NCBI GenBank assembly: GCA_944358455.1
Contig: CALVRE010000042.1
Coordinates: forward strand, 299-64,298
DNA: 64,000 nucleotides
DNA from: an uncultured Bacilli bacterium
GTDB lineage: Bacteria > Bacillota_I > Bacilli_A > RF39 > UBA660
Direction: 5' to 3'
Positions 1-8,437 of the stretch are shown here, piece after piece. Each line of letters opens with the position of its first letter. Position 1 is the first letter of the stretch. Below the pieces are notes generated by a model, which was not told the origin of the DNA, did not search any database, and saw nothing but the letters and a program-made list of their open reading frames with translations. The translations under genes were made by a program, and so were the position numbers.

Positions 1-2459
1 TCATTGATCAGCATCAAAAGAAAATTCAAACACGAAACGATGCTTGTAATAATCTGATTTTTCGTATAGATGATGCTCTACGTGACGCCAAATCAATATT
101 CTCTGATTCACAATCATTTGTTGATCCTCAAGCAGAAATTAAATGGAGAAATCGAAATGGTAACATATTAGCAGATTCCAAAATGCATAAAATCAAATGG
201 CTGAAAAAGGCTACCAATTACAAAGTATTATCTATCAAGATACTTGAATTAATTGATATTGATCAATCTATGTCTCAAAAAATTCTTCAACACAATGAGC
301 ATGCTATACGCATGAAAGTACAGGAAGCATATTCTCTTATTGGAGATGTTGAGGGTCGAAAACTTGATCAACAACAAATGACTTGTATTGTCAAAGAAGC
401 ACACAATCATTTAGTAATAGCTGGTGCTGGAACGGGGAAAACAACCACTATTGTCGGAAAAATCAAATATTTACTTAAAACAGGTAAATACTTACCACAA
501 GATATTTTGGTGTTGTCATTCACAAATGCCTCTGCATCTGAAATGAAGGAGCGCATTTTTTCCGAGACTGGGCATAATATTGCCGCTTCAACTTTTCATA
601 AACTTGGTTTAAATATTATATCACAAGTTGATAACGTAATGCCGAAAATAACTCGACTTAATCTACAAAAGTTTGTTAAAGATCAACTCATGTTGAATAT
701 GCAATCTGATGTATATCTCCATATGCTAAGTTCTTATTTACTGTATAATCGTGTGGTAGCAAAATCAGAGTTTGAGTTCAAATCGCAGAACGAATATGAT
801 GAATACTTGAGATTAAATCCACCAACCACAGTTAATAACGAAACTGTTAAAAGCTATGGAGAAATGGATATAGCTAACTTTTTAATGCAAAACGGTATAC
901 GGTATATTTATGAACATCCTTACGAAGTAGATACTCGCACTAGAGAATATGGGCAGTATTACCCGGACTTCTATCTTCCAGATTATAAAATTTATATTGA
1001 ATATTTTGGAATCAATCGAAACGGAGAAGCTCCATCTTATTTCAAATCTACAGATGGAATGACCGCTACAGAGTCTTATCGTGCATCCATGAGATGGAAA
1101 CACAATATACATCGCGAACATCATACCACGATGATTGAATGCTATGCCTATGAAAAACTAGAAGGAAATTTACTTGATTCCTTAAAAAATAAACTCGAAG
1201 ATGCGTCGGTTGTTTTAATGCCGAAATCTGCCAAAGATCTATGGACACAAGTTTCTGATGAGGGAGATTCTTTACTTGACGGTATTGTCGAATTATTTGA
1301 AACTTTGATCAACCTGATCAAGGGCAATGGGTATGATATAACAGCCGTTCGCAATTTGAATCATGCTGGTAGCAACACACAGACTAATAATACTTTACTT
1401 TCACTATTGGATCCAATTTTCAATGCTTACTGTCAATATCTTTTAGAACATGAAGAAATTGATTTTAATGATATGATTAGTTTTGCTTCCGAATATATAC
1501 GGCAAGGAAAATATACCAATCCTTACAAATATGTGATTGTGGATGAATATCAAGATATATCTAAGACTCGTTTTACACTTTTGGACTGCTTGCGAAAATC
1601 AAATGATTTTGATCTTTTCTGCGTTGGTGATGATTGGCAAAGTATATATCGTTTTGCTGGAAGTGATATTGGGTTCATCCTTAATTTTTCAAAATATTGG
1701 GGTGCAACAGAAATCAGCAGAATTGAAACTACATATCGTTTCTCGCAAAAGTTAATTGAAATAAGCAGTGGATTTATTATGCAAAATCCTGTTCAAATAA
1801 AAAAATCTATCAAAGGAAAAGCCGATAGTTTTAGATTCCCTCTTGGTGAAATTTCTGGCTATAATGATAAATATGCGATTGAATTTATGACAAAAAAACT
1901 AAATGATATTCCTAAAGGAAGTACTGTATTTTTCATTGGAAGATATTCTTTTGACGCCAAATTATTGTATGATAGCGAACTATTTTCCTATCAGCATAAC
2001 AGCGCAGATGGTTTTGTTGATATAAAAATTAAATGTCGTCCTGATCTAAAAATGAAATTTTTGACAGCACATAAATCAAAGGGCTTGCAAGCTGATTACA
2101 TATTTATAATAAATAATAAAAAATCAAGGATGGGATTTCCAAGTAAAATCCAGGACGCTCCAATTTTAAATTTGTTACTTGATAATTGTGACCACTATCC
2201 TCACGCGGAAGAGCGCCGTCTATTTTATGTGGCTTTAACCAGAGCGAAAACGAAAGCTTTTATTGTTACCGTCAAAGGACAAGAATCTGAATTTGCAATG
2301 GAACTTAAAGAACGATATAAAGATGATTTGAAAAAAGAGCAGTTTGAATGTCCTCTTTGTGGTGGACAATTGGTAAAGCATTCCGGTCCATATGGCGAGT
2401 TTTTTGGTTGCTCCAATTATTACACAAACAAATGCAACTACACAAGAAAAATTAGATAA
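1..2459 (+). CDS. SF1 UvrD-like helicase paralog 1, with an internal Vsr/DUF559-like putative nuclease insert and a C-terminal topoisomerase-type C4 Zn ribbon. Probably 5'-partial: the frame is open to the window start and the listed ORF begins at the ATG at 183.
   Basis: Walker A VIAGAGTGKTTT, Walker B VIVDEYQD, motif III GDDWQSIYRFAGS, motif VI TAHKSKGLQADYIF and AEERRLFYVALTR are all present. A ~370-aa insert between Walker A and Walker B carries YYPDF..KIYIEYFGI, resembling the Vsr PDF..hGCFWH pattern. The C-terminus has CPLCGG...GEFFGCSNY. There is no stop codon and no RBS upstream of the ATG at 183, and the in-frame translation from position 3 reads like protein. Confidence 0.8.
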   Translation, partial: IDQHQKKIQTRNDACNNLIFRIDDALRDAKSIFSDSQSFVDPQAEIKWRNRNGNILADSKMHKIKWLKKATNYKVLSIKILELIDIDQSMSQKILQHNEHAIRMKVQEAYSLIGDVEGRKLDQQQMTCIVKEAHNHLVIAGAGTGKTTTIVGKIKYLLKTGKYLPQDILVLSFTNASASEMKERIFSETGHNIAASTFHKLGLNIISQVDNVMPKITRLNLQKFVKDQLMLNMQSDVYLHMLSSYLLYNRVVAKSEFEFKSQNEYDEYLRLNPPTTVNNETVKSYGEMDIANFLMQNGIRYIYEHPYEVDTRTREYGQYYPDFYLPDYKIYIEYFGINRNGEAPSYFKSTDGMTATESYRASMRWKHNIHREHHTTMIECYAYEKLEGNLLDSLKNKLEDASVVLMPKSAKDLWTQVSDEGDSLLDGIVELFETLINLIKGNGYDITAVRNLNHAGSNTQTNNTLLSLLDPIFNAYCQYLLEHEEIDFNDMISFASEYIRQGKYTNPYKYVIVDEYQDISKTRFTLLDCLRKSNDFDLFCVGDDWQSIYRFAGSDIGFILNFSKYWGATEISRIETTYRFSQKLIEISSGFIMQNPVQIKKSIKGKADSFRFPLGEISGYNDKYAIEFMTKKLNDIPKGSTVFFIGRYSFDAKLLYDSELFSYQHNSADGFVDIKIKCRPDLKMKFLTAHKSKGLQADYIFIINNKKSRMGFPSKIQDAPILNLLLDNCDHYPHAEERRLFYVALTRAKTKAFIVTVKGQESEFAMELKERYKDDLKKEQFECPLCGGQLVKHSGPYGEFFGCSNYYTNKCNYTRKIR

Positions 2460-2566
2460 TACATTCTAATGCATCGACGAAAATATATAACTAATTTTCT
2501 AAAATTGTTAAAAGACTATGAACACTTCTTAACAATATAAGTTCATTTGTCAAACGAGTATCTTCC

Positions 2567-2595
2567 TTGACGATTTTCCTTTTTTAAATTATAAT
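2567..2595 (+). promoter_or_regulatory. Near-consensus sigma-A promoter, about 110 nt upstream of tRNA-Pro
   Basis: The -35 element is TTGACG (2567-2572), followed by a 17-nt spacer and TATAAT (2590-2595). A short hairpin GGTTGCAAGGTAACC plus T-run at 2661-2680 lies between the promoter and the tRNA. Confidence 0.5.
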
Positions 2596-2706
2596 TAGAA
2601 ATAAAAGATTGTGGTTATAAATTATTTCTTTAATGGGTGGTTATCTTGTTTTCTTTCACTGGTTGCAAGGTAACCTTTTTATACCATATTTAGAAAATAC
2701 ATAAAT

Positions 2707-2783
2707 CGGAGTGTAGTTCAGCTTGGTAGAATGCTGGCTTCGGGAGCTAGAGGTCGCAGGTTCAAATCCTGTCACTCCGACCA
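2707..2783 (+). tRNA. tRNA-Pro (anticodon CGG)
   Basis: A cloverleaf was folded by hand. It has a C1:G72 acceptor pair with A73, which is typical of bacterial tRNA-Pro. The anticodon stem is CTGGC/GCTAG with loop TTCGGGA, giving anticodon CGG and G37. The T-loop is TTCAAAT and CCA is encoded. Total length is 77 nt. Confidence 0.8.
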
Positions 2784-2851
2784 GTTTGATCATTCCATAT
2801 TTATAATATAATATTAAGTATCTTAATGATAAGAAAACTTAAATCATCGAT

Positions 2852-2878
2852 AAAAGATACCCATTGGGTATCTTTTTA
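2852..2878 (+). terminator. Rho-independent terminator after tRNA-Pro
   Basis: The hairpin is AGATACCC-ATT-GGGTATCT followed by TTTTT. It lies inside the 5' extension of the listed ZIP ORF, which argues for the later ZIP start at 2922. Confidence 0.55.
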
Positions 2879-2921
2879 TCATGTATCAATAAAGTTTTCA
2901 TATTCTTTAATAGGTGATAGT

Positions 2922-3680
2922 ATGGGACAAACAACATTTGCGTTTCTTTTAACTGTTCTGGCAGGTTTATCAACAATGATTGGAAGCATTCTTATTTTTA
3001 TTAAAGTAAACAATAGTAATAAATTAATTGCTAGTAGTCTAGGTTTTGCTGCTGGTGTTATGATGACAGTTTCTATTACGGATTTAATACCAGAATCTAT
3101 TCATTCGATCGAAAGTGTATATCGATTTGTTCCATCCCTATTAATTGTAGCAATTTTTATCACGATTGGCATTATATTTTCAATGATGATCGATCGATTT
3201 TTGCCAGAAGATTTAACTAATACGAATAAAAAAGGATTGTATAGGGTAGGAGTTATTTCCATGTTAGCCATTATCTTTCACAATATACCAGAAGGAATTG
3301 CGACTTTTATGACCACAAGTAGTCATATCACTCTTGGAATCGCCTTAACAATCGCCATAGCGATGCATAATATACCAGAGGGTATTTCGATATCGATTCC
3401 TATCTATTACGCGACAGGAAGTCGTTTAAAAGCGTTATTTTACACTTTTGTTTCTGGTTTATCAGAACCATTGGGCGCTATTTTGGCCTATTTGATACTT
3501 AGACCCTTTGTCAACGATATGATGATGGGATGTTTATATGCAATCATAGCAGGTATTATGTTACATATCTCCATTTATGAATTAATTCCTACCTCTTTTT
3601 CTTATCAGTATAAAAGAAGTAGTAAACGATGGATATTCATTGGAATTGTATTTATGCTCATCAATCATTTTCTTTTTTAG
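2922..3680 (+). CDS. ZIP-family metal (Zn) transporter, ZupT-like
   Basis: The protein is polytopic with duplicated HNIPEGIA and HNIPEGIS motifs typical of the ZIP family. The start was moved to the ATG at 2922, which has the RBS AGGTGA. Confidence 0.8.
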   Translation: MGQTTFAFLLTVLAGLSTMIGSILIFIKVNNSNKLIASSLGFAAGVMMTVSITDLIPESIHSIESVYRFVPSLLIVAIFITIGIIFSMMIDRFLPEDLTNTNKKGLYRVGVISMLAIIFHNIPEGIATFMTTSSHITLGIALTIAIAMHNIPEGISISIPIYYATGSRLKALFYTFVSGLSEPLGAILAYLILRPFVNDMMMGCLYAIIAGIMLHISIYELIPTSFSYQYKRSSKRWIFIGIVFMLINHFLF

Positions 3681-3703
3681 TAAAACATGTTACAATGGAG
3701 TAG

Positions 3704-3988
3704 GTGAGAAGTATGATAAAAGCATTTCAATATAAACCAAATGGAGTATGTTCGAAAAATATTATTTTTACAGTCGATGAAAATAATATCATTCGTGATT
3801 TAAGGGTCATTGGTGGTTGTCCTGGTAATTTACTAGGAATTAGTGCTTTAGTAAAAGGGCAAAAGATCGATGATGTAATCGAAAAATTAAAAGGAATTCG
3901 TTGTGGCAATAAAGTTACCTCATGTCCAGATCAAATTGCGATTGCATTAGAAAAATACAAAGATGAACAAATATTAAATGTAAAATAA
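3704..3988 (+). CDS. TIGR03905-like small 4-Cys protein
   Basis: A 94-aa protein with conserved Cys residues (GGCPGN...CGNK.TSCPDQ). RBS is GGAGTAGGTGAG. Confidence 0.6.
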   Translation: MRSMIKAFQYKPNGVCSKNIIFTVDENNIIRDLRVIGGCPGNLLGISALVKGQKIDDVIEKLKGIRCGNKVTSCPDQIAIALEKYKDEQILNVK

Positions 3989-4018
3989 AAAGAGATAACA
4001 ATTGTTTATCTCTTTTCA
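3985..4018. terminator. Bidirectional Rho-independent terminator
   Basis: The stem is AGAGATAA/TTATCTCT with A-runs and T-runs flanking on both sides. Confidence 0.55.
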
Positions 4019-4023
4019 TTGGG

Positions 4024-4224
4024 TTATTTGCAATCTCTTAGTTCAAATGAATGATCTGAATTTTCATCATATTCGAATGAATGATCTTCAGACTCAAAAC
4101 CGATGTTTTGATCATTTGAATTCATTTTACTCTTACAGTCAGTTACTTGATTATTTTTCTTGTTACTAACTTGTTTGTTACTTTTATTGGTAACATTAGA
4201 GTTTTTATTCTTATTCTTTGCCAT
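4024..4224 (-). CDS. Small low-complexity protein (N/K-rich N-terminus, acidic DHSFE-repeat C-terminus); hypothetical
   Basis: An ORF with an RBS (GGTGA) before the internal ATG (MAKNK...). It sits between the two helicase paralogs. Low complexity makes coding status uncertain. Confidence 0.3.
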   Translation of the reverse strand: MAKNKNKNSNVTNKSNKQVSNKKNNQVTDCKSKMNSNDQNIGFESEDHSFEYDENSDHSFELRDCK

Positions 4225-4358
4225 TTTCATCACCCATTAGTAGTATGGCTAAAAACATAGATTATATGCTGATAACATTATTCCATTATTTTCCAATAAA
4301 ACGATGCGCATTGTTAATTTTTATGATATACTATAAGCAATAATAGAGTAGGTGACAT

Positions 4359-6938
4359 ATGCATAACATCGAACATTTATTACAAGAAGAAAAATACATA
4401 TCTAGAAGTGATCTATTTATAAATGATCTTATGGAAACAAAATACTTACAACAAGCAGACTATCACAACAAACTCTTTATTCGAAAAAAATTAAAAGAGT
4501 ATAAAGAATATTTCGATCACATTTTAGATAAAGAAAATAAAAATATTAAATTGGATTTTGAACAGCGACTGGCTATCTTAACAGATGAAGATTATAATTT
4601 AATTATTGCTGGTGCAGGAAGTGGTAAAACGACAACAATGGTTGCCAAGATTAAATATTTAATTGAAAAGTGTCATATTCCTGGAAATCAAATTTTAGCT
4701 ATGTCTTTTGCCAGAAAAAACGTTATGGAACTCGACGAAAAATTAAACAAAATCTATCAACTTGGTGTCGATGTAAAAACATTTCATAAATTAGGATGCG
4801 AACTAATTGGAATCGACCGTAATACTCCTGTACGTGTCATTAGCCAAAATGTTCAAAAAGACATTATTTTAGATTTTTTAAAAAATGACATATATCAAGA
4901 TAAACAACTTTTGCATGATACAGTTAATTTTTTAAGTTGTTACTTCTATGCTGATCCTCATCTATCAGAATTTGAAAGTTTCGACGAATATAAAAAATAT
5001 AAATATGATACACAATACGAATCATTAAAGGGAAATCTAGGAGAGTACAATAAGACGATTATCGATAAGCGTAGAAAAGCAAAGATCAGTATCCAAAATG
5101 AATTTTTACGTTCGTATGAAGAACTAAAAATCGCGAATTTCTTATTTTTAAATGGGATTGAATATGAGTACGAAAAGCGATATCCGTTTCCAGCAGGAGA
5201 TGTTGTTTACTATCCGGATTTTACAATTAAGCAGGGAGAAAATATCGTTTATCTAGAACATTTTGGAATTCATCAAAATGGGTCAAGTGATATCTATAGT
5301 GCAGATGTGTTGCATAAATATTTGCATGAAATTGACATCAAAAAGCAATGGCACGAGCAAAATAAGACAAAGATGATATGTACCTATTCGCAATATAACG
5401 ATGGTCGATCACTGCTAGTACACCTGGAAGAACTATTGACTCAAAATGGATTTATTTTACACAAATTGGATGAAAAATCTGTATATGATAAGTTATTTGA
5501 AACATCACAAAACACGCAATTTTATGCCTATTTAATCTTAGCTTTATCATTTATAGCAAAATTTAAATTAACCTATTATCAATCTAGTTATTTTGATCAA
5601 CTGATGCAAACAACCGATAATGAGCGAACCTTTCAATTTTTAAAGTTGACAAAAAAAGTTTACCAAGCTTATCAAGATTATTTAACAAATCACCATTTAA
5701 TTGATTTTGAAGACATGATTATCCAGTCGATCGATGTATTAAGTCATACCAAAAAGGAATCGTTCCCGTTTCAATACCAGTATGTAATCGTAGATGAATA
5801 CCAAGATATTTCTGATCAAAGATTCGAATTGTTACGAAAATTTGTCATGTTATTAGGTGCAAAAGTGATCGCCGTTGGAGATGATTGGCAATCAATTTTC
5901 GCTTTTGCTGGTTCAAATGTTAGTTTATTTACTCAATTTGAAGAAGTAATGGGATATGCAGAGATTTTAAGAATCCAGAATACGTATCGCAATAGTCAAG
6001 AGTTAATCGATGTAGCAAGTGAATTTGTCGAAAAAAATAATGTACAAATTCATAAAGAGTTACATTCTAATATTCATCTTGATAAGCCGGTTGTAGTATA
6101 TTCTTATGATGATTACCATGCATCTTCAACTAATAAGGGGATATTAATTACTAAAATTATTCAAGATATTATAAAAGAATATTCACCACAAAACAAGATT
6201 CTTTTAATTGGTCGTTACCAAAATGATTTGGATCGATTACTAACAACAGGCCTTTTCCAAAAAGGACAAGGAAATCATGTTATCTGTACTAGTATTCCAA
6301 GTGCACGACTTTATTTCGCTACAGCCCATGGTTCCAAGGGAGTAGAGTATGATAATGTCATTATTATCAACGCGATCGATTCAACCTATGGTTTTCCTTC
6401 TAAAGTAAAAGATGATCCGATTTTCCTATTATTTGGAGATAAAAGAAATTTAGCATATGCCGAAGAGAGAAGACTGTTTTACGTTGCCTTGACACGAACA
6501 AAGAGTAGGGTATATATTATCGTTCCTGCTTCTAAACCATCTCCGTTTGTGTTAGAATTAAAAGAGAATATCCATGTTGAATTTAAAGATGATGTAGTAA
6601 AAAATTATCAAAATCAAATTGAAAGTTTAACATGTCCACACTGTGGTTTTTATTTAAAACGAGAATATTTTGACCCAATGAATCAATACGTATATCGTTG
6701 TACCAATGATAAAAATATATGTGATTTTATCACGACAGAATTAACTTATAAAGTTCCTATCAAACCATGTCCAAAATGTAAGAAAGGGTTTATCATATTT
6801 AAAACTATAGTTTCCAATCATGACCAAAAGTTATTGATGTGTGGTTGTACCAATTACCGAGAAGAAGAAATTGCATGCACGCATGTAGAGTACTTTCCTT
6901 GGAACAAGGCAGAGACTGATACTGTTACTCAGAGATAA
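4359..6938 (+). CDS. SF1 UvrD-like helicase paralog 2, with the same nuclease-like insert and two C-terminal Zn ribbons
   Basis: IAGAGSGKTTT, VIVDEYQD, GDDWQSIFAFAGS, TAHGSKG and AEERRLFYVALTR are present. The insert carries YYPDF..IVYLEHFGI. The C-terminus has CPHCG...YRCTN and CPKCKKG...MCGCTNY. RBS is TAGGTGA. Confidence 0.85.
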   Translation: MHNIEHLLQEEKYISRSDLFINDLMETKYLQQADYHNKLFIRKKLKEYKEYFDHILDKENKNIKLDFEQRLAILTDEDYNLIIAGAGSGKTTTMVAKIKYLIEKCHIPGNQILAMSFARKNVMELDEKLNKIYQLGVDVKTFHKLGCELIGIDRNTPVRVISQNVQKDIILDFLKNDIYQDKQLLHDTVNFLSCYFYADPHLSEFESFDEYKKYKYDTQYESLKGNLGEYNKTIIDKRRKAKISIQNEFLRSYEELKIANFLFLNGIEYEYEKRYPFPAGDVVYYPDFTIKQGENIVYLEHFGIHQNGSSDIYSADVLHKYLHEIDIKKQWHEQNKTKMICTYSQYNDGRSLLVHLEELLTQNGFILHKLDEKSVYDKLFETSQNTQFYAYLILALSFIAKFKLTYYQSSYFDQLMQTTDNERTFQFLKLTKKVYQAYQDYLTNHHLIDFEDMIIQSIDVLSHTKKESFPFQYQYVIVDEYQDISDQRFELLRKFVMLLGAKVIAVGDDWQSIFAFAGSNVSLFTQFEEVMGYAEILRIQNTYRNSQELIDVASEFVEKNNVQIHKELHSNIHLDKPVVVYSYDDYHASSTNKGILITKIIQDIIKEYSPQNKILLIGRYQNDLDRLLTTGLFQKGQGNHVICTSIPSARLYFATAHGSKGVEYDNVIIINAIDSTYGFPSKVKDDPIFLLFGDKRNLAYAEERRLFYVALTRTKSRVYIIVPASKPSPFVLELKENIHVEFKDDVVKNYQNQIESLTCPHCGFYLKREYFDPMNQYVYRCTNDKNICDFITTELTYKVPIKPCPKCKKGFIIFKTIVSNHDQKLLMCGCTNYREEEIACTHVEYFPWNKAETDTVTQR

Positions 6939-7542
6939 TAAAAAGTAAAAATATATAGAAGTTAACATAATATAGATTATAGTAAGTTATATATTTTTAA
7001 TAATTATTCGAATAGTTATTCATTTTAAAGTAAATATTGAATGTGAATTATCTTATTTTAGATAGTTCTTTTTTATTATTCTCAAGAATTATTTTTATAT
7101 TCGAAAGATTTTTGTATTATGATTCATTTGTTATTGTGATTATTTTTATTACATTATTTTAATCTAATCTTTTCCATTATTTAAATTGATATATGATACC
7201 ATGTTGTATATTTTAATTTGAGATGGACAGTTATTCATCTATTCTTCTTTTTTAGCGCTACAAAGCGCGTTATACATGTCTATGACCTACTCTCCTATTT
7301 GTTATGATAATAGTAGGGGGGTTAACAAAAAATTAATAGGGGAGTTGTTACTTTGTAAAAACGTTTTATGAATCGATATTTTATCGTAAACGTATAACTC
7401 TAAACAAGTCTTGTAAATATCGAATATATGATTCATATTAACAAGGGTAAGTAGAAATGAAATTTTGTTATGAAATGGATCGTTATTTTATATCGATAAA
7501 AATACTCTCTCCTACTCTATTAAAAAAAACACCGAGTAGGTG

Positions 7543-8331
7543 TTAATTTACTTTTCGTGATTGAATTTCTGCGATTTTTTCGAATACTTCAGCTGCATTC
7601 TTTTCATTGATTTCCGTATATCCTAATTCTTTTAGGGCTTGAACTTTGATCGTATTAAGTTCTAAAGTACGACTCATTTTTTCTTCTCTACGATGTTCTA
7701 TTTGATTTACAAAACGTTTATGGGATTCCGCAATTCTAGATTTAGATGCACCACCATTATTATATAAAGTCATTCCAGAGAACATGATACTTTCAAAGAT
7801 AAATTGATCATCTTCATCAAACACAAATTCAAGTGGCTTTACAAAACCAGTTGCCTTTGCTACATAAGCCAAAATGTACTTTAATTCTTTTGATGAATCC
7901 AATGATTGAATGAAATGATAAAGATAACGGAAAGTATGATATGCTTGATCGCTATTTCGTTCGCTATCATCTTCTAGTTTTTCTTTGATCAATTCGATAA
8001 TATTATGTAATAATTCTTTATCTCTTTTGTTTAGGCCATTATAAATATTACTACTATCATTAAATTCATTTTTCGCATTGTTTTCAAATAATGCATTAAT
8101 TCTCGTTTCTACATTCATAATATAATCAGTGTCTACTTTAATATTATTGATTTCATCTGGTGATTTAATACCAAGTAGATTTAGTAGTAACACTTTTTTA
8201 TCTTTTGGCCATTTATTAATATCATCTAGTTCCAAATAATTATAGATCATTTGTCTAGATACACCTAAATACTTCGCTAGTTTTACTTTTGAAATGCCTA
8301 ATTCATGTAAAATGTCATTTAGTTTTTCCAT
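7543..8331 (-). CDS. XRE-family HTH transcriptional regulator with a ~200-aa C-terminal domain of unknown function
   Basis: The N-terminal HTH is LAKYLGVSRQMIYNYLE. The start was set at MEKLN, which has the RBS AGGAGG. Confidence 0.7.
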   Translation of the reverse strand: MEKLNDILHELGISKVKLAKYLGVSRQMIYNYLELDDINKWPKDKKVLLLNLLGIKSPDEINNIKVDTDYIMNVETRINALFENNAKNEFNDSSNIYNGLNKRDKELLHNIIELIKEKLEDDSERNSDQAYHTFRYLYHFIQSLDSSKELKYILAYVAKATGFVKPLEFVFDEDDQFIFESIMFSGMTLYNNGGASKSRIAESHKRFVNQIEHRREEKMSRTLELNTIKVQALKELGYTEINEKNAAEVFEKIAEIQSRKVN

Positions 8332-8437
8332 ATTTTTAAAACCTCCTATTATCATTTTATCATTTCCCTGTCAAATGTCAAGTGTAAAGTAAAAGTATAG
8401 TTAAAAAGTTAAAAAAAGAGGGGAACTCCCCTACTAA

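What the first reader, a model, noticed from the sequence alone, without database searches (positions are those of the whole stretch)
1..6938. Tandem diverged paralogs of an SF1 helicase with an inserted Vsr/DUF559-like putative nuclease and a topoisomerase-type Zn ribbon, bracketing tRNA-Pro
Both proteins carry the full UvrD motif set: Walker A ~80 aa from the N-terminus, DEYQD, GDDWQSI(Y/F)xFAGS, TAHxSKG and AEERRLFYVALTR. The segment between Walker A and Walker B, where UvrD has domain 1B, is about 370 aa. It contains a block conserved in both paralogs: E(M/L)xIANFLxxNGIxYxYExxY......YYPDF........(I/V)Y(I/L)E(Y/H)FGIxxNG. By eye this resembles the PDF...hGCFWH core of Vsr/DUF559 PD-(D/E)XK-type endonucleases, with acidic residues at the expected spacing. 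Each C-terminus carries CPxCG...G.FxGCSNY-type C4 ribbons as in topoisomerase I zinc fingers, two of them in paralog 2. The copies are only moderately similar and sit head-to-tail. Between them lie tRNA-Pro(CGG), a ZIP transporter, a 4-Cys protein and a low-complexity small ORF. After them come a 600-bp AT-rich non-coding stretch and an XRE regulator. Helicase plus nuclease single-chain proteins at a tRNA locus are typical of anti-phage or anti-plasmid defence modules (Gabija-, Nhi- and Hachiman-like logic). This particular domain order is not one I can assign to a named system.
Basis: partly seen in the sequence, partly recalled or inferred. Interest (0 to 1): 0.65.

Follow-up and report, generated by a model that had tools for sequence, protein, structure and literature searches.

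The report
Helicase IV-like helicases with inserted nuclease
Two distantly related copies of an uncharacterised but widespread helicase carry a nuclease-fold domain inserted in the motor and zinc ribbons at the tail; both are accessory, horizontally moving genes, so they are more likely a stand-alone DNA-conflict or DNA-processing enzyme than a housekeeping helicase.

Summary
Copy 1 runs off the left edge of the window. Its full length is 834 aa, so its Walker A lies about 155 aa from the true N-terminus, not 80.

Both proteins are UvrD-family helicases. Their closest named relative is E. coli helicase IV (HelD), but they score below that model's cut-off.

Relative to HelD they carry an extra ~160-240 aa. 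A high-confidence AlphaFold model (pLDDT 93.9) folds the ~137-aa core of this insert as a restriction-endonuclease-type (PD-(D/E)XK) nuclease. The best structural matches are I-Bth0305I, Vsr, VRR-NUC, DUF559 and Bax1. By sequence the only significant relative is phage T7 endonuclease I. Three acidic catalytic residues are invariant from bacteria to archaea. The catalytic lysine is always an aromatic or other hydrophobic residue, so nuclease activity is unproven.

The two copies share 33% identity and belong to different subfamilies; they are not a recent tandem duplication. Both are accessory. Most related genomes have an empty site where copy 2 sits. A near-identical strain (flanks 95-99% identical in DNA) carries an allele only 67% identical in protein. 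Copy-1-type genes are low-GC islands in higher-GC hosts.

No conserved partner gene and no named defence system matches. A defence role is plausible but unproven.

The parts
3..2459 (+). Copy 1: helicase IV-like SF1A helicase with nuclease-fold insert and one Zn ribbon. It is truncated at the window's left edge; the full protein is 834 aa.
   Evidence: NCBIfam helicase IV 350.6 bits (cut-off 543). P0001 is 99.7% identical and 834 aa.
420..446 (+). Copy 1 Walker A (AGAGTGKTT).
   Evidence: Sequence; alignment to UvrD.
810..1220 (+). Copy 1 inserted PD-(D/E)XK (T7 endonuclease I-like) domain. E227, D262 and E273 are present; F275 sits at the lysine position (numbering of the 758-aa ORF).
   Evidence: Pairwise alignment, family alignments, hhalign to T7 endonuclease I.
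2346..2453 (+). Copy 1 C-terminal topoisomerase-type C4 zinc ribbon.
   Evidence: Pfam PF01396, 33.2 bits against cut-off 32, residues 722-757.
2707..2783 (+). tRNA-Pro(CGG). It belongs to the conserved backbone: 95% identical in the related contig L094.
2826..3680 (+). ZupT zinc transporter, a conserved backbone gene.
   Evidence: 95-99% DNA identity to L094. Present next to the XRE-like gene in 40 of 55 related loci.
3704..3988 (+). TSCPD / TIGR03905 4-Cys protein, on the backbone side of the divergence step.
4024..4233 (-). Low-complexity small ORF (69 aa), 100% identical in L094. The divergence step begins at its 5' end.
4359..6938 (+). Copy 2: helicase IV-like SF1A helicase (859 aa) with nuclease-fold insert and two Zn ribbons. 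It is a hypervariable accessory gene.
   Evidence: AF2 pLDDT 88.8. Allele step. Empty sites in relatives.
4608..4637 (+). Copy 2 Walker A (residues 84-93).
   Evidence: Invariant A84-T93 in alignment A1.
5052..5462 (+). Copy 2 inserted PD-(D/E)XK domain (residues 232-368). E255, D287 and E300 are invariant; F302 replaces the catalytic lysine.
5793..5807 (+). Copy 2 Walker B, DEYQD (residues 479-483).
   Evidence: Invariant D479, E480, Q482 and D483.
6633..6878 (+). Copy 2: two C4 zinc ribbons (C759/C762/C781/C788 and C804/C807/C830/C840).
   Evidence: Conserved cysteines. Beta-hairpins with pLDDT ~90 in the model. Homologues carry PF01396.
6939..7542 (.). AT-rich non-coding stretch between copy 2 and the XRE-like gene. 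In relatives the corresponding site holds variable cargo.
   Evidence: GC 0.23-0.24. A 9-kb Rep_1 element lies here in L095. Variable gap contents in relatives.
7543..8355 (-). XRE-like HTH protein (270 aa). It is a conserved lineage gene next to mnmA and marks the backbone on the right side.
   Evidence: Weak HTH hits. 65-79% identical homologues in 80 metagenome loci, next to mnmA in most of them.

Best explanation
Each gene encodes a stand-alone, single-chain helicase-nuclease of one large uncharacterised family.

Shown:
- The motor is a UvrD-type SF1A helicase, closest to E. coli helicase IV, with all ATPase and helicase motifs and a much reduced 2B region.
- A T7-endonuclease-I-like PD-(D/E)XK domain is inserted where UvrD has domain 1B, flanked by long helices.
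- One or two topoisomerase-I-type C4 zinc ribbons end the protein.
- The genes are accessory. Copy 2 occupies a variable site that is empty in most relatives, and it differs sharply between near-identical strains. Copy-1-type genes are low-GC foreign genes in other hosts. Family members sit on plasmids among restriction and abortive-infection genes. No partner gene is conserved.

Inferred:
- The motor translocates 3'->5' on single-stranded DNA, as SF1A enzymes do.
- The nuclease-fold domain, held on a helical arm, meets the fork or branch point ahead of or beside the motor. There it binds or cuts branched or unwound DNA.
- The zinc ribbons hold single-stranded DNA.
- The most likely biological role is attack on, or exclusion of, invading or replicating mobile DNA (phage, plasmid, rolling-circle elements), acting as a one-gene system.
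For: Motor:
- Pfam UvrD-helicase E 1.9e-46 and 2.2e-38.
- NCBIfam helicase IV is the best hit, at 350.6 and 279.7 bits.
- 32% identity to E. coli HelD over 316 aa. HelD has ~83 aa (306-389) where copy 2 has ~244 aa (184-428).
- Foldseek of the full model gives UvrD1, PcrA, UvrD and Rep as best matches, E ~1e-18.

Insert:
- AF2 pLDDT 93.9 with alpha-beta-beta-beta-alpha-beta-alpha order.
- hhalign to T7 endonuclease I gives 93.4%, E 2.5e-7. E255, D287 and E300 align to E20, D55 and E65.
- A profile search of all PDB sequences finds only T7 endonuclease I (E 5e-4), then Bax1 (E 0.02-0.1).
- The acidic triad is kept in bacterial and archaeal members.

Size of the family: 5,789 clusters at 50% identity match at E<=1e-3 and 1,798 at E<=1e-10. 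Most matches lie ~280-500 aa into proteins of 800-1,300 aa.

Accessory and mobile nature:
- Between the window and L094, DNA identity is 95-99% across 2851-4200. It then drops to 56-81% across the helicase.
- In 27 of the 40 related loci with ZupT downstream (55 loci were long enough to judge), the XRE-to-ZupT gap is under 1.2 kb, with no helicase. One locus has a truncated remnant. Copy 1 is absent from all.
- Elsewhere the same gap holds a NERD nuclease protein, Cas9, and filamentous-phage-like and Rep genes.
- Copy-1-type genes are 34-39% GC in contigs whose flanks are mostly 45-55% GC (one downstream flank 41%), and they share no synteny.
- 73 plasmid records carry a match covering at least 80% of copy 2. 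The examples inspected sit next to DUF262/GmrSD, AAA ATPase plus UvrD, and DUF3800 genes.

No conserved neighbour: among 133 neighbouring ORFs from 27 loci, no Pfam family occurs more than 3 times.
Against: - The lysine equivalent to T7 endonuclease I K67 is F, W, Y or another hydrophobic residue in every member examined. The T7 K67A mutant is the inactive form used to crystallise the junction complex; the 2pfj sequence shows ETAG. The domain may therefore bind DNA without cutting it.
- No defence model in PADLOC matches beyond generic UvrD-core hits to GajB and RTasHel.
- Defence-type neighbours are scattered, and many neighbours are housekeeping genes.
- Copy-2-type genes sit next to ZupT in several related species. 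That could also reflect vertical inheritance of a fast-evolving repair gene.
- Model coordinates could not be inspected. The position of the conserved K328/H332 relative to the acidic triad, and of the nuclease relative to the DNA path, is therefore unknown.
Confidence: 0.5

Rival explanations
1. It is a DNA repair, recombination or replication-restart enzyme. A helicase IV-like motor unwinds stalled forks, bubbles or recombination intermediates, and the built-in structure-specific nuclease incises them. This would resemble RecB/AddA, or XPB with Bax1.
For: - The closest named relative is helicase IV.
- The insert's sequence relatives are a Holliday-junction resolvase (T7 endonuclease I) and the XPB-partner nuclease Bax1.
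- Copy-2-type genes keep their position next to ZupT in several related species.
- One plasmid copy lies near UvrX and a GIY-YIG nuclease.
Against: - Most relatives of this lineage lack the gene at this site.
- The allele differs far more than its flanks between near-identical strains.
- Copy-1-type genes have foreign GC content and no synteny.
- The family occurs on plasmids among restriction-type genes.
These patterns are unusual for housekeeping repair genes.
Confidence: 0.3
2. The nuclease fold is catalytically dead. It serves as a branched-DNA or DNA-end recognition, wedge or regulatory module of the helicase, so the protein is a specialised helicase only.
For: The canonical lysine is replaced by an aromatic or other hydrophobic residue throughout the family. 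The T7 endonuclease I K67A mutant binds junctions without cutting (established knowledge; the mutant sequence is visible). Degenerate PD-(D/E)XK domains are known, for example in RecC (PMC3424549).
Against: Three metal-binding carboxylates (E255, D287, E300) plus S252, N260 and E272 are invariant across bacteria and archaea. That is hard to explain without metal binding. The structurally closest clade (Vsr, I-Bth0305I, DUF559) consists of active nucleases that also lack the canonical lysine (plus established knowledge).
Confidence: 0.3
3. It is a function of mobile elements themselves, such as a plasmid, ICE or prophage accessory helicase for replication, transfer or anti-defence, rather than a host defence.
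For: The family is present on plasmids, including mobilizable and conjugative ones. A copy-1-type gene lies directly beside an integrase/relaxase/MobC element. The site next to copy 2 receives Rep-carrying elements.
Against: In the window no integrase, relaxase, replication gene or att-like repeat accompanies either gene. In L081 the gene lies outside the integrase end of the element. Four hits in the phage collection are short unannotated faecal contigs.
Confidence: 0.15
4. The two copies are a functional pair (a heterodimer or two-component system) created by tandem duplication at the tRNA-Pro locus.
For: They lie head to tail within 7 kb.
Against: - They share only 33% identity and belong to different deep subfamilies.
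- They share no DNA similarity beyond one motif.
- They are separated by backbone genes.
- L094 has copy 2 without copy 1.
- Homologues of each occur alone elsewhere.
Confidence: 0.05

Closest known systems
E. coli DNA helicase IV (HelD, NCBIfam PRK11054)
   Same: It is the best family-level hit for both copies (350.6 and 279.7 bits). Identity is 32% over the C-terminal 316 aa and 29% around Walker A. Both are SF1A motors; the window proteins have a short 2B region (~70 aa against ~240 in UvrD).
   Different: The scores are below the 543-bit cut-off. HelD has no nuclease-fold insert (83 aa where copy 2 has 244 aa). No zinc-ribbon match was seen in it. It has its own ~165-aa N-terminal region that does not align with copy 2.
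Phage T7 endonuclease I (Pfam PF05367), a Holliday-junction resolvase
   Same: It is the only significant sequence relative of the insert (hhalign 93.4%, E 2.5e-7; PDB profile search E 5e-4). E20, D55 and E65 are matched by invariant E255, D287 and E300. The RS..E, EYE and Y.PDF motifs are shared.
   Different: K67 is replaced by an aromatic or other hydrophobic residue. The Pfam score (15.5 bits) is below the gathering score of 29.1. T7 endonuclease I is a domain-swapped homodimer (PMC3424549). Here a single unswapped domain is embedded in a helicase.
Vsr / DUF559 / I-Bth0305I (EDxHD) branch of the PD-(D/E)XK superfamily
   Different: There is no significant sequence relation (hhalign to E. 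coli Vsr 0.9%; no Pfam hit). No Vsr-type His motif was detected.
RecB / AddA / AdnB helicase-nucleases
   Same: They combine a UvrD-like SF1A motor and a PD-(D/E)XK nuclease in one chain. They are Foldseek matches at E 1e-15 to 1e-11.
   Different: Their nuclease is a C-terminal RecB-type domain rather than an insert at the 1B position. They work in multi-subunit complexes and are conserved repair enzymes.
XPB-Bax1 helicase-nuclease pair
   Different: It consists of two separate proteins, and XPB is an SF2 helicase.
Helicase-nuclease defence systems (Gabija GajAB, Nhi, Hachiman, Hna)
   Same: They share the logic of a helicase plus a nuclease. The GajB and RTasHel models hit the UvrD core (E down to 1e-47).
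   Different: There is no GajA or other partner gene. The nuclease type and position differ. No system-level match exists in PADLOC 2.0. Hna is a different enzyme.

Membership tests
SF1A UvrD/Rep/PcrA helicase superfamily | Walker A, motif Ia, Walker B DExQD, motif III GDxxQxI, and motifs V/VI (TxHxxKG, EERRLxYVAxTRA). | tested here: met
   Pfam UvrD-helicase, AAA_19 and UvrD_C above cut-off in both copies. Motif residues invariant in 70 sequences. Best solved structural matches are UvrD1, PcrA, UvrD and Rep.
DNA helicase IV (NCBIfam PRK11054 equivalog) | Whole-protein score at or above the curated cut-off of 543 bits. | tested here: not met
   350.6 bits (copy 1) and 279.7 bits (copy 2).
DNA helicase IV (NCBIfam PRK11054 equivalog) | HelD-type N-terminal domain and a continuous 1A/1B region without a large insert. 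| tested here: not met
   BLASTP to E. coli HelD aligns only residues 25-184 and 428-740 of copy 2. The first ~165 aa of HelD do not align, and the insert has no counterpart in HelD. No Helicase_IV_N hit in Pfam.
RNA-polymerase-recycling HelD (Bacillus / Mycobacterium type) | N-terminal secondary-channel arm and clamp-arm insertion that bind RNA polymerase. | tested here: inconclusive
   Foldseek matches 6wvk_H and 6yys_H only weakly (TM 0.26-0.34), behind UvrD, PcrA and RecB.
PD-(D/E)XK phosphodiesterase superfamily | Alpha-beta-beta-beta-alpha-beta core fold. | tested here: met
PD-(D/E)XK phosphodiesterase superfamily | Acidic residues of the PD and (D/E)xK motifs, plus the helix-1 glutamate. 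| tested here: met
   E255, D287 and E300 are invariant. They are kept in Proteobacteria, Actinomycetota and archaea.
PD-(D/E)XK phosphodiesterase superfamily | Lysine of the (D/E)xK motif. | tested here: not met
   The position is F302 in copy 2 and F275 in copy 1. It is F, W, Y or another hydrophobic residue (I, V, L) in all members examined. Whether K328/H332 substitute could not be tested without coordinates.
Phage_endo_I (Pfam PF05367) | Score at or above the gathering score (29.1 bits). | tested here: not met
   15.5 bits, E 0.014, for the copy 2 insert; no hit for copy 1. Profile-level relation is significant, and one homologue (P0211) carries a precomputed PF05367 hit.
Vsr (PF03852) / DUF559 (PF04480) | Sequence-profile match to the family. 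| tested here: not met
Topoisomerase-type C4 zinc ribbon (Pfam PF01396) | Gathering score and four conserved cysteines. | tested here: met
   Copy 1 scores 33.2 bits against 32. Copy 2 fails Pfam on its own, but it has two sets of four cysteines at least 90% conserved, and its homologues carry PF01396.
Gabija (GajA + GajB) | An adjacent GajA (ATPase + TOPRIM/OLD nuclease) gene. | tested here: not met
   Only the UvrD core matches the GajB models. No such neighbour exists in the window, and no partner is conserved across 27 loci.
Any named anti-phage system (PADLOC-DB 2.0) | A system-specific protein model match. | tested here: not met
   The 25 best matches shown were only generic GajB and RTasHel helicase models. 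Newer catalogues (current DefenseFinder) could not be run.

The most novel reading that the evidence does not exclude
This family is a widespread, previously unnamed one-gene immune system. A helicase IV-like motor carries a lysine-less T7-endonuclease-I-type branch nuclease on its 1B arm. It destroys replicating phage, plasmid or rolling-circle DNA. Alleles are exchanged at chromosomal hotspots under diversifying pressure.
Probability: 0.35. Interest if true: 0.75.

Novelty: new variant of a known kind. Interest (0 to 1): 0.55.

Why it matters
Helicase-nuclease enzymes are central to DNA repair (RecBCD, AddAB) and to many newly found anti-phage systems. This family is large: at least 1,800 clusters at 50% identity, spanning bacteria, archaea and plasmids. 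In the databases it is labelled only 'UvrD-helicase domain-containing protein' or 'DNA helicase IV', and its nuclease-fold insert has no Pfam annotation.

Placing a junction-resolvase-like domain inside the motor, rather than at an end, is an unusual design. It could show how unwinding and cutting are coupled at a fork.

If the defence reading is right, it adds a compact single-gene system that is common in gut bacteria. If the lysine-less site is active, it widens the known chemistry of the T7 endonuclease I branch. If it is inactive, it is a case of a nuclease fold re-used as a DNA-structure sensor.

Tried and rejected
- PADLOC scan of both helicases and the XRE-like protein gave only generic UvrD-core hits.
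- Pfam and PDB single-sequence searches of the insert alone gave nothing significant. Profile methods were needed.
- hhalign of the insert profile against E. coli Vsr was not significant. A 'member of Vsr/DUF559' reading was therefore dropped in favour of 'same fold, T7 endonuclease I-like sequence'.
- The AFDB50 fold library was not available.
- Exact look-ups of the window's own proteins (P0121, P0242), meant to recover DNA left of the window, found nothing. Cluster look-up gave no names or accessions. The source organism and the region upstream of copy 1 remain unknown.
- Rfam found only the tRNA. Repeat and promoter/terminator scans showed no att-like repeats and nothing above background.
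- Escherichia 'plasmid' hits turned out to be true helD, covering only the C-terminal third.
- Literature searches (papers read) found no description of this architecture. Hna and 'type II Gabija' are different.
- Tandem duplication and a two-gene system were rejected.
Full report
**What is in the window**

- copy 1: 183-2459 +
- tRNA-Pro(CGG): 2707-2783
- ZupT: 2826-3680
- a TSCPD/TIGR03905 4-Cys protein: 3704-3988
- a low-complexity 69-aa ORF on the minus strand: 4024-4233
- copy 2: 4359-6938 +
- a 600-nt stretch of 23-24% GC
- a 270-aa protein with weak helix-turn-helix hits: 7543-8355, minus strand

One correction is needed. The reading frame of copy 1 is open from nt 3. A 99.7% identical public protein is 834 aa long. 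Copy 1 is therefore cut by the window edge, and its Walker A lies about 155 residues from the true N-terminus.

The two proteins align end to end at 33% identity (E 3e-98). Their genes share no DNA similarity apart from 39 nt at helicase motif III.

**The motor**

Both proteins hit UvrD-helicase, AAA_19 and UvrD_C strongly. The best curated family is DNA helicase IV, at 350.6 and 279.7 bits, below its 543-bit cut-off.

E. coli HelD aligns with copy 2 only at residues 25-184 and 428-740. HelD has about 83 residues where copy 2 has about 244. Against UvrD, the region that corresponds to 1B is about 190 residues longer here. The region that corresponds to 2B is about 170 residues shorter.

A full-length AlphaFold2 model of copy 2 has mean pLDDT 88.8. 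Its best solved matches are UvrD1, PcrA, UvrD and Rep, followed by AddA, AdnB and RecB, with RNA-polymerase-binding HelD further down.

**The insert**

In a 70-sequence alignment these residues are invariant: E248, S252, E255, N260, Y269, Y271, E272, P286, D287, F288 and E300. K328 and H332 are nearly invariant.

A model of residues 232-368 alone has pLDDT 93.9 and the order helix, three strands, helix, strand, helix.

- RAP-domain proteins, TnsA and Hjc below these

Nearly all of the leading matches have the PD-(D/E)XK fold.

By sequence the picture is more specific. A profile of the insert matches T7 endonuclease I at 93.4% probability, E 2.5e-7. In a profile search of all PDB sequences, only T7 endonuclease I is significant (E 5e-4), followed by Bax1 at E 0.02-0.1. 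E. coli Vsr is not matched (0.9%), and Pfam gives nothing above threshold.

The alignment puts E255, D287 and E300 on T7 residues E20, D55 and E65. It puts F302 on the catalytic K67.

In members from Clostridia, Proteobacteria, Actinomycetota, Thermoplasmata and Halobacteria the three carboxylates are always kept. The lysine position is always F, W, Y or another hydrophobic residue. Nuclease activity is therefore plausible, because the structurally nearest branch also lacks that lysine. It is not shown.

I could not test whether K328/H332 reach the active site, or where the domain sits relative to the DNA path.

**The tail**

Copy 1 passes the topoisomerase-type zinc ribbon model (33.2 bits against 32). 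Copy 2 has two sets of four conserved cysteines, modelled as beta-hairpins.

**How large and how mobile the family is**

The insert profile finds 5,789 clusters at 50% identity at E<=1e-3 and 1,798 at E<=1e-10. Most matches lie 280-500 residues into proteins of 800-1,300 aa.

In a sample of species-representative genomes, the insert-bearing architecture occurs in many bacterial phyla and in archaea.

Seventy-three plasmid records carry a match covering at least 80% of copy 2. In the examples inspected the gene stands alone among DUF262/GmrSD, AAA ATPase plus UvrD, DUF3800, HTH and transposase genes.

Among 133 neighbouring ORFs from 27 loci, no Pfam family recurs more than three times. There is no conserved partner gene. 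Defence-type hits are scattered among housekeeping genes (mad3, AriA-like, GmrSD, McrBC).

**Copy 1 type**

Proteins 74-84% identical to copy 1 occur in unrelated neighbourhoods. In those contigs the gene is 34-39% GC, while the flanks are mostly 45-55% GC; one downstream flank is 41%. In one common gut bacterium the gene lies between a tRNA-Ser and an integrase/relaxase/MobC element. This is the signature of horizontal transfer.

**Copy 2 and its site**

A contig from a very close relative (L094) is 95-99% identical in DNA to the window from the tRNA-Pro to nt ~4200. Identity then falls abruptly to 56-81% across the promoter region and the whole helicase gene, which is 67% identical in protein. 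That contig has an IS element after the tRNA-Pro and no copy 1.

More distant relatives also have a copy-2-type gene next to ZupT. In one of them (L095), a 9-kb element with a Rep_1 gene sits between the helicase and the XRE-like gene.

I then used the conserved XRE-like protein as bait and recovered 80 related metagenome loci:
- 55 have enough downstream sequence to judge.
- 40 of those have ZupT downstream.
- In 27 of those 40 the gap is under 1.2 kb, so the site is empty.
- One locus (L155) has a truncated helicase remnant.
- None has copy 1.

In other loci the gap holds a NERD nuclease protein, Cas9, filamentous-phage-like genes (Zot, G2P-type Rep), a sigma factor or a peptidase.

Both helicases are thus accessory insertions on either side of a conserved tRNA-Pro/ZupT segment. 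The XRE-ZupT interval is a variable site.

**Interpretation**

Shown:
- the domain architecture
- the fold and nearest relatives of the insert
- the conservation pattern
- the lack of a partner gene
- the accessory and mobile nature of both genes

Inferred:
- 3'->5' translocation on ssDNA
- presentation of fork or branch DNA to the inserted domain
- ssDNA binding by the ribbons

I favour a stand-alone DNA-conflict function, directed against mobile or replicating foreign DNA. The grounds are the allele step, the empty sites, the foreign GC content and the plasmid neighbourhoods. A repair or recombination role, or a non-catalytic sensor role for the insert, remains open.

No named defence system matches. 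I found no paper that describes this architecture. I cannot exclude that one exists outside the searched library.

Noticed in passing
window 4024-4233 (minus strand); L094 9024-9224: The low-complexity 69-aa ORF (N/K-rich, then a repeated DHSFE motif) is 100% identical in protein in the related contig L094. The sharp drop in DNA identity between the two strains starts at its 5' end, around nt 4200-4350. Whether it is a real gene is unknown.
   Followed up: partly
L094 6511-7863, against window ~2865: The close relative has an IS element (rve-family transposase plus an HTH protein) inserted between tRNA-Pro and ZupT. This element is absent from the window.
   Followed up: partly
window 6939-7542; L095 3975-13236: In a relative, the site corresponding to the AT-rich gap between copy 2 and the XRE-like gene holds a ~9-kb element of small ORFs with a Rep_1 gene. 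Other relatives have Zot, G2P-type Rep and RepSA genes just past the XRE-like gene. This suggests a landing site for rolling-circle or filamentous-phage-like elements.
   Followed up: partly
L132 11033-15187: In one related metagenome contig, a complete Cas9 gene (1,385 aa; REC, RuvC, HNH and PI domains) sits directly after the XRE-like gene. This is where the window has copy 2.
   Followed up: partly
L101 5654-6394: A stand-alone NERD nuclease-domain protein (247 aa) occupies the XRE-ZupT gap in this related locus. Two further ORFs downstream of the XRE-like gene in other loci also match NERD.
   Followed up: partly
L155 1647-2864: A 406-aa UvrD-type remnant lies between the XRE-like gene and ZupT. 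It lacks Walker A and the nuclease-fold insert, and looks like a decayed copy-2-type gene.
   Followed up: partly
window 7543-8355 (minus strand): The 'XRE regulator' has only weak HTH hits at its N-terminus, and about 200 residues have no family match. Even so, it is 65-79% identical across 80 metagenome loci and lies next to mnmA in most of them. It behaves like a conserved lineage gene of unknown function.
   Followed up: partly
L081 9800-14388: In a common gut bacterium, the copy-1-type gene (34% GC against 47% flanks) lies between a tRNA-Ser(CGA) and the integrase/excisionase end of a relaxase/MobC mobilizable element.
   Followed up: partly
homologues P0164, P0167, P0179, P0194, P0210, P0211, P0217, P0234: Some copy-2-type relatives (990-1,210 aa) also carry HRDC (PF00570) or RQC (PF09382) domains, as RecQ helicases do.
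   Followed up: no
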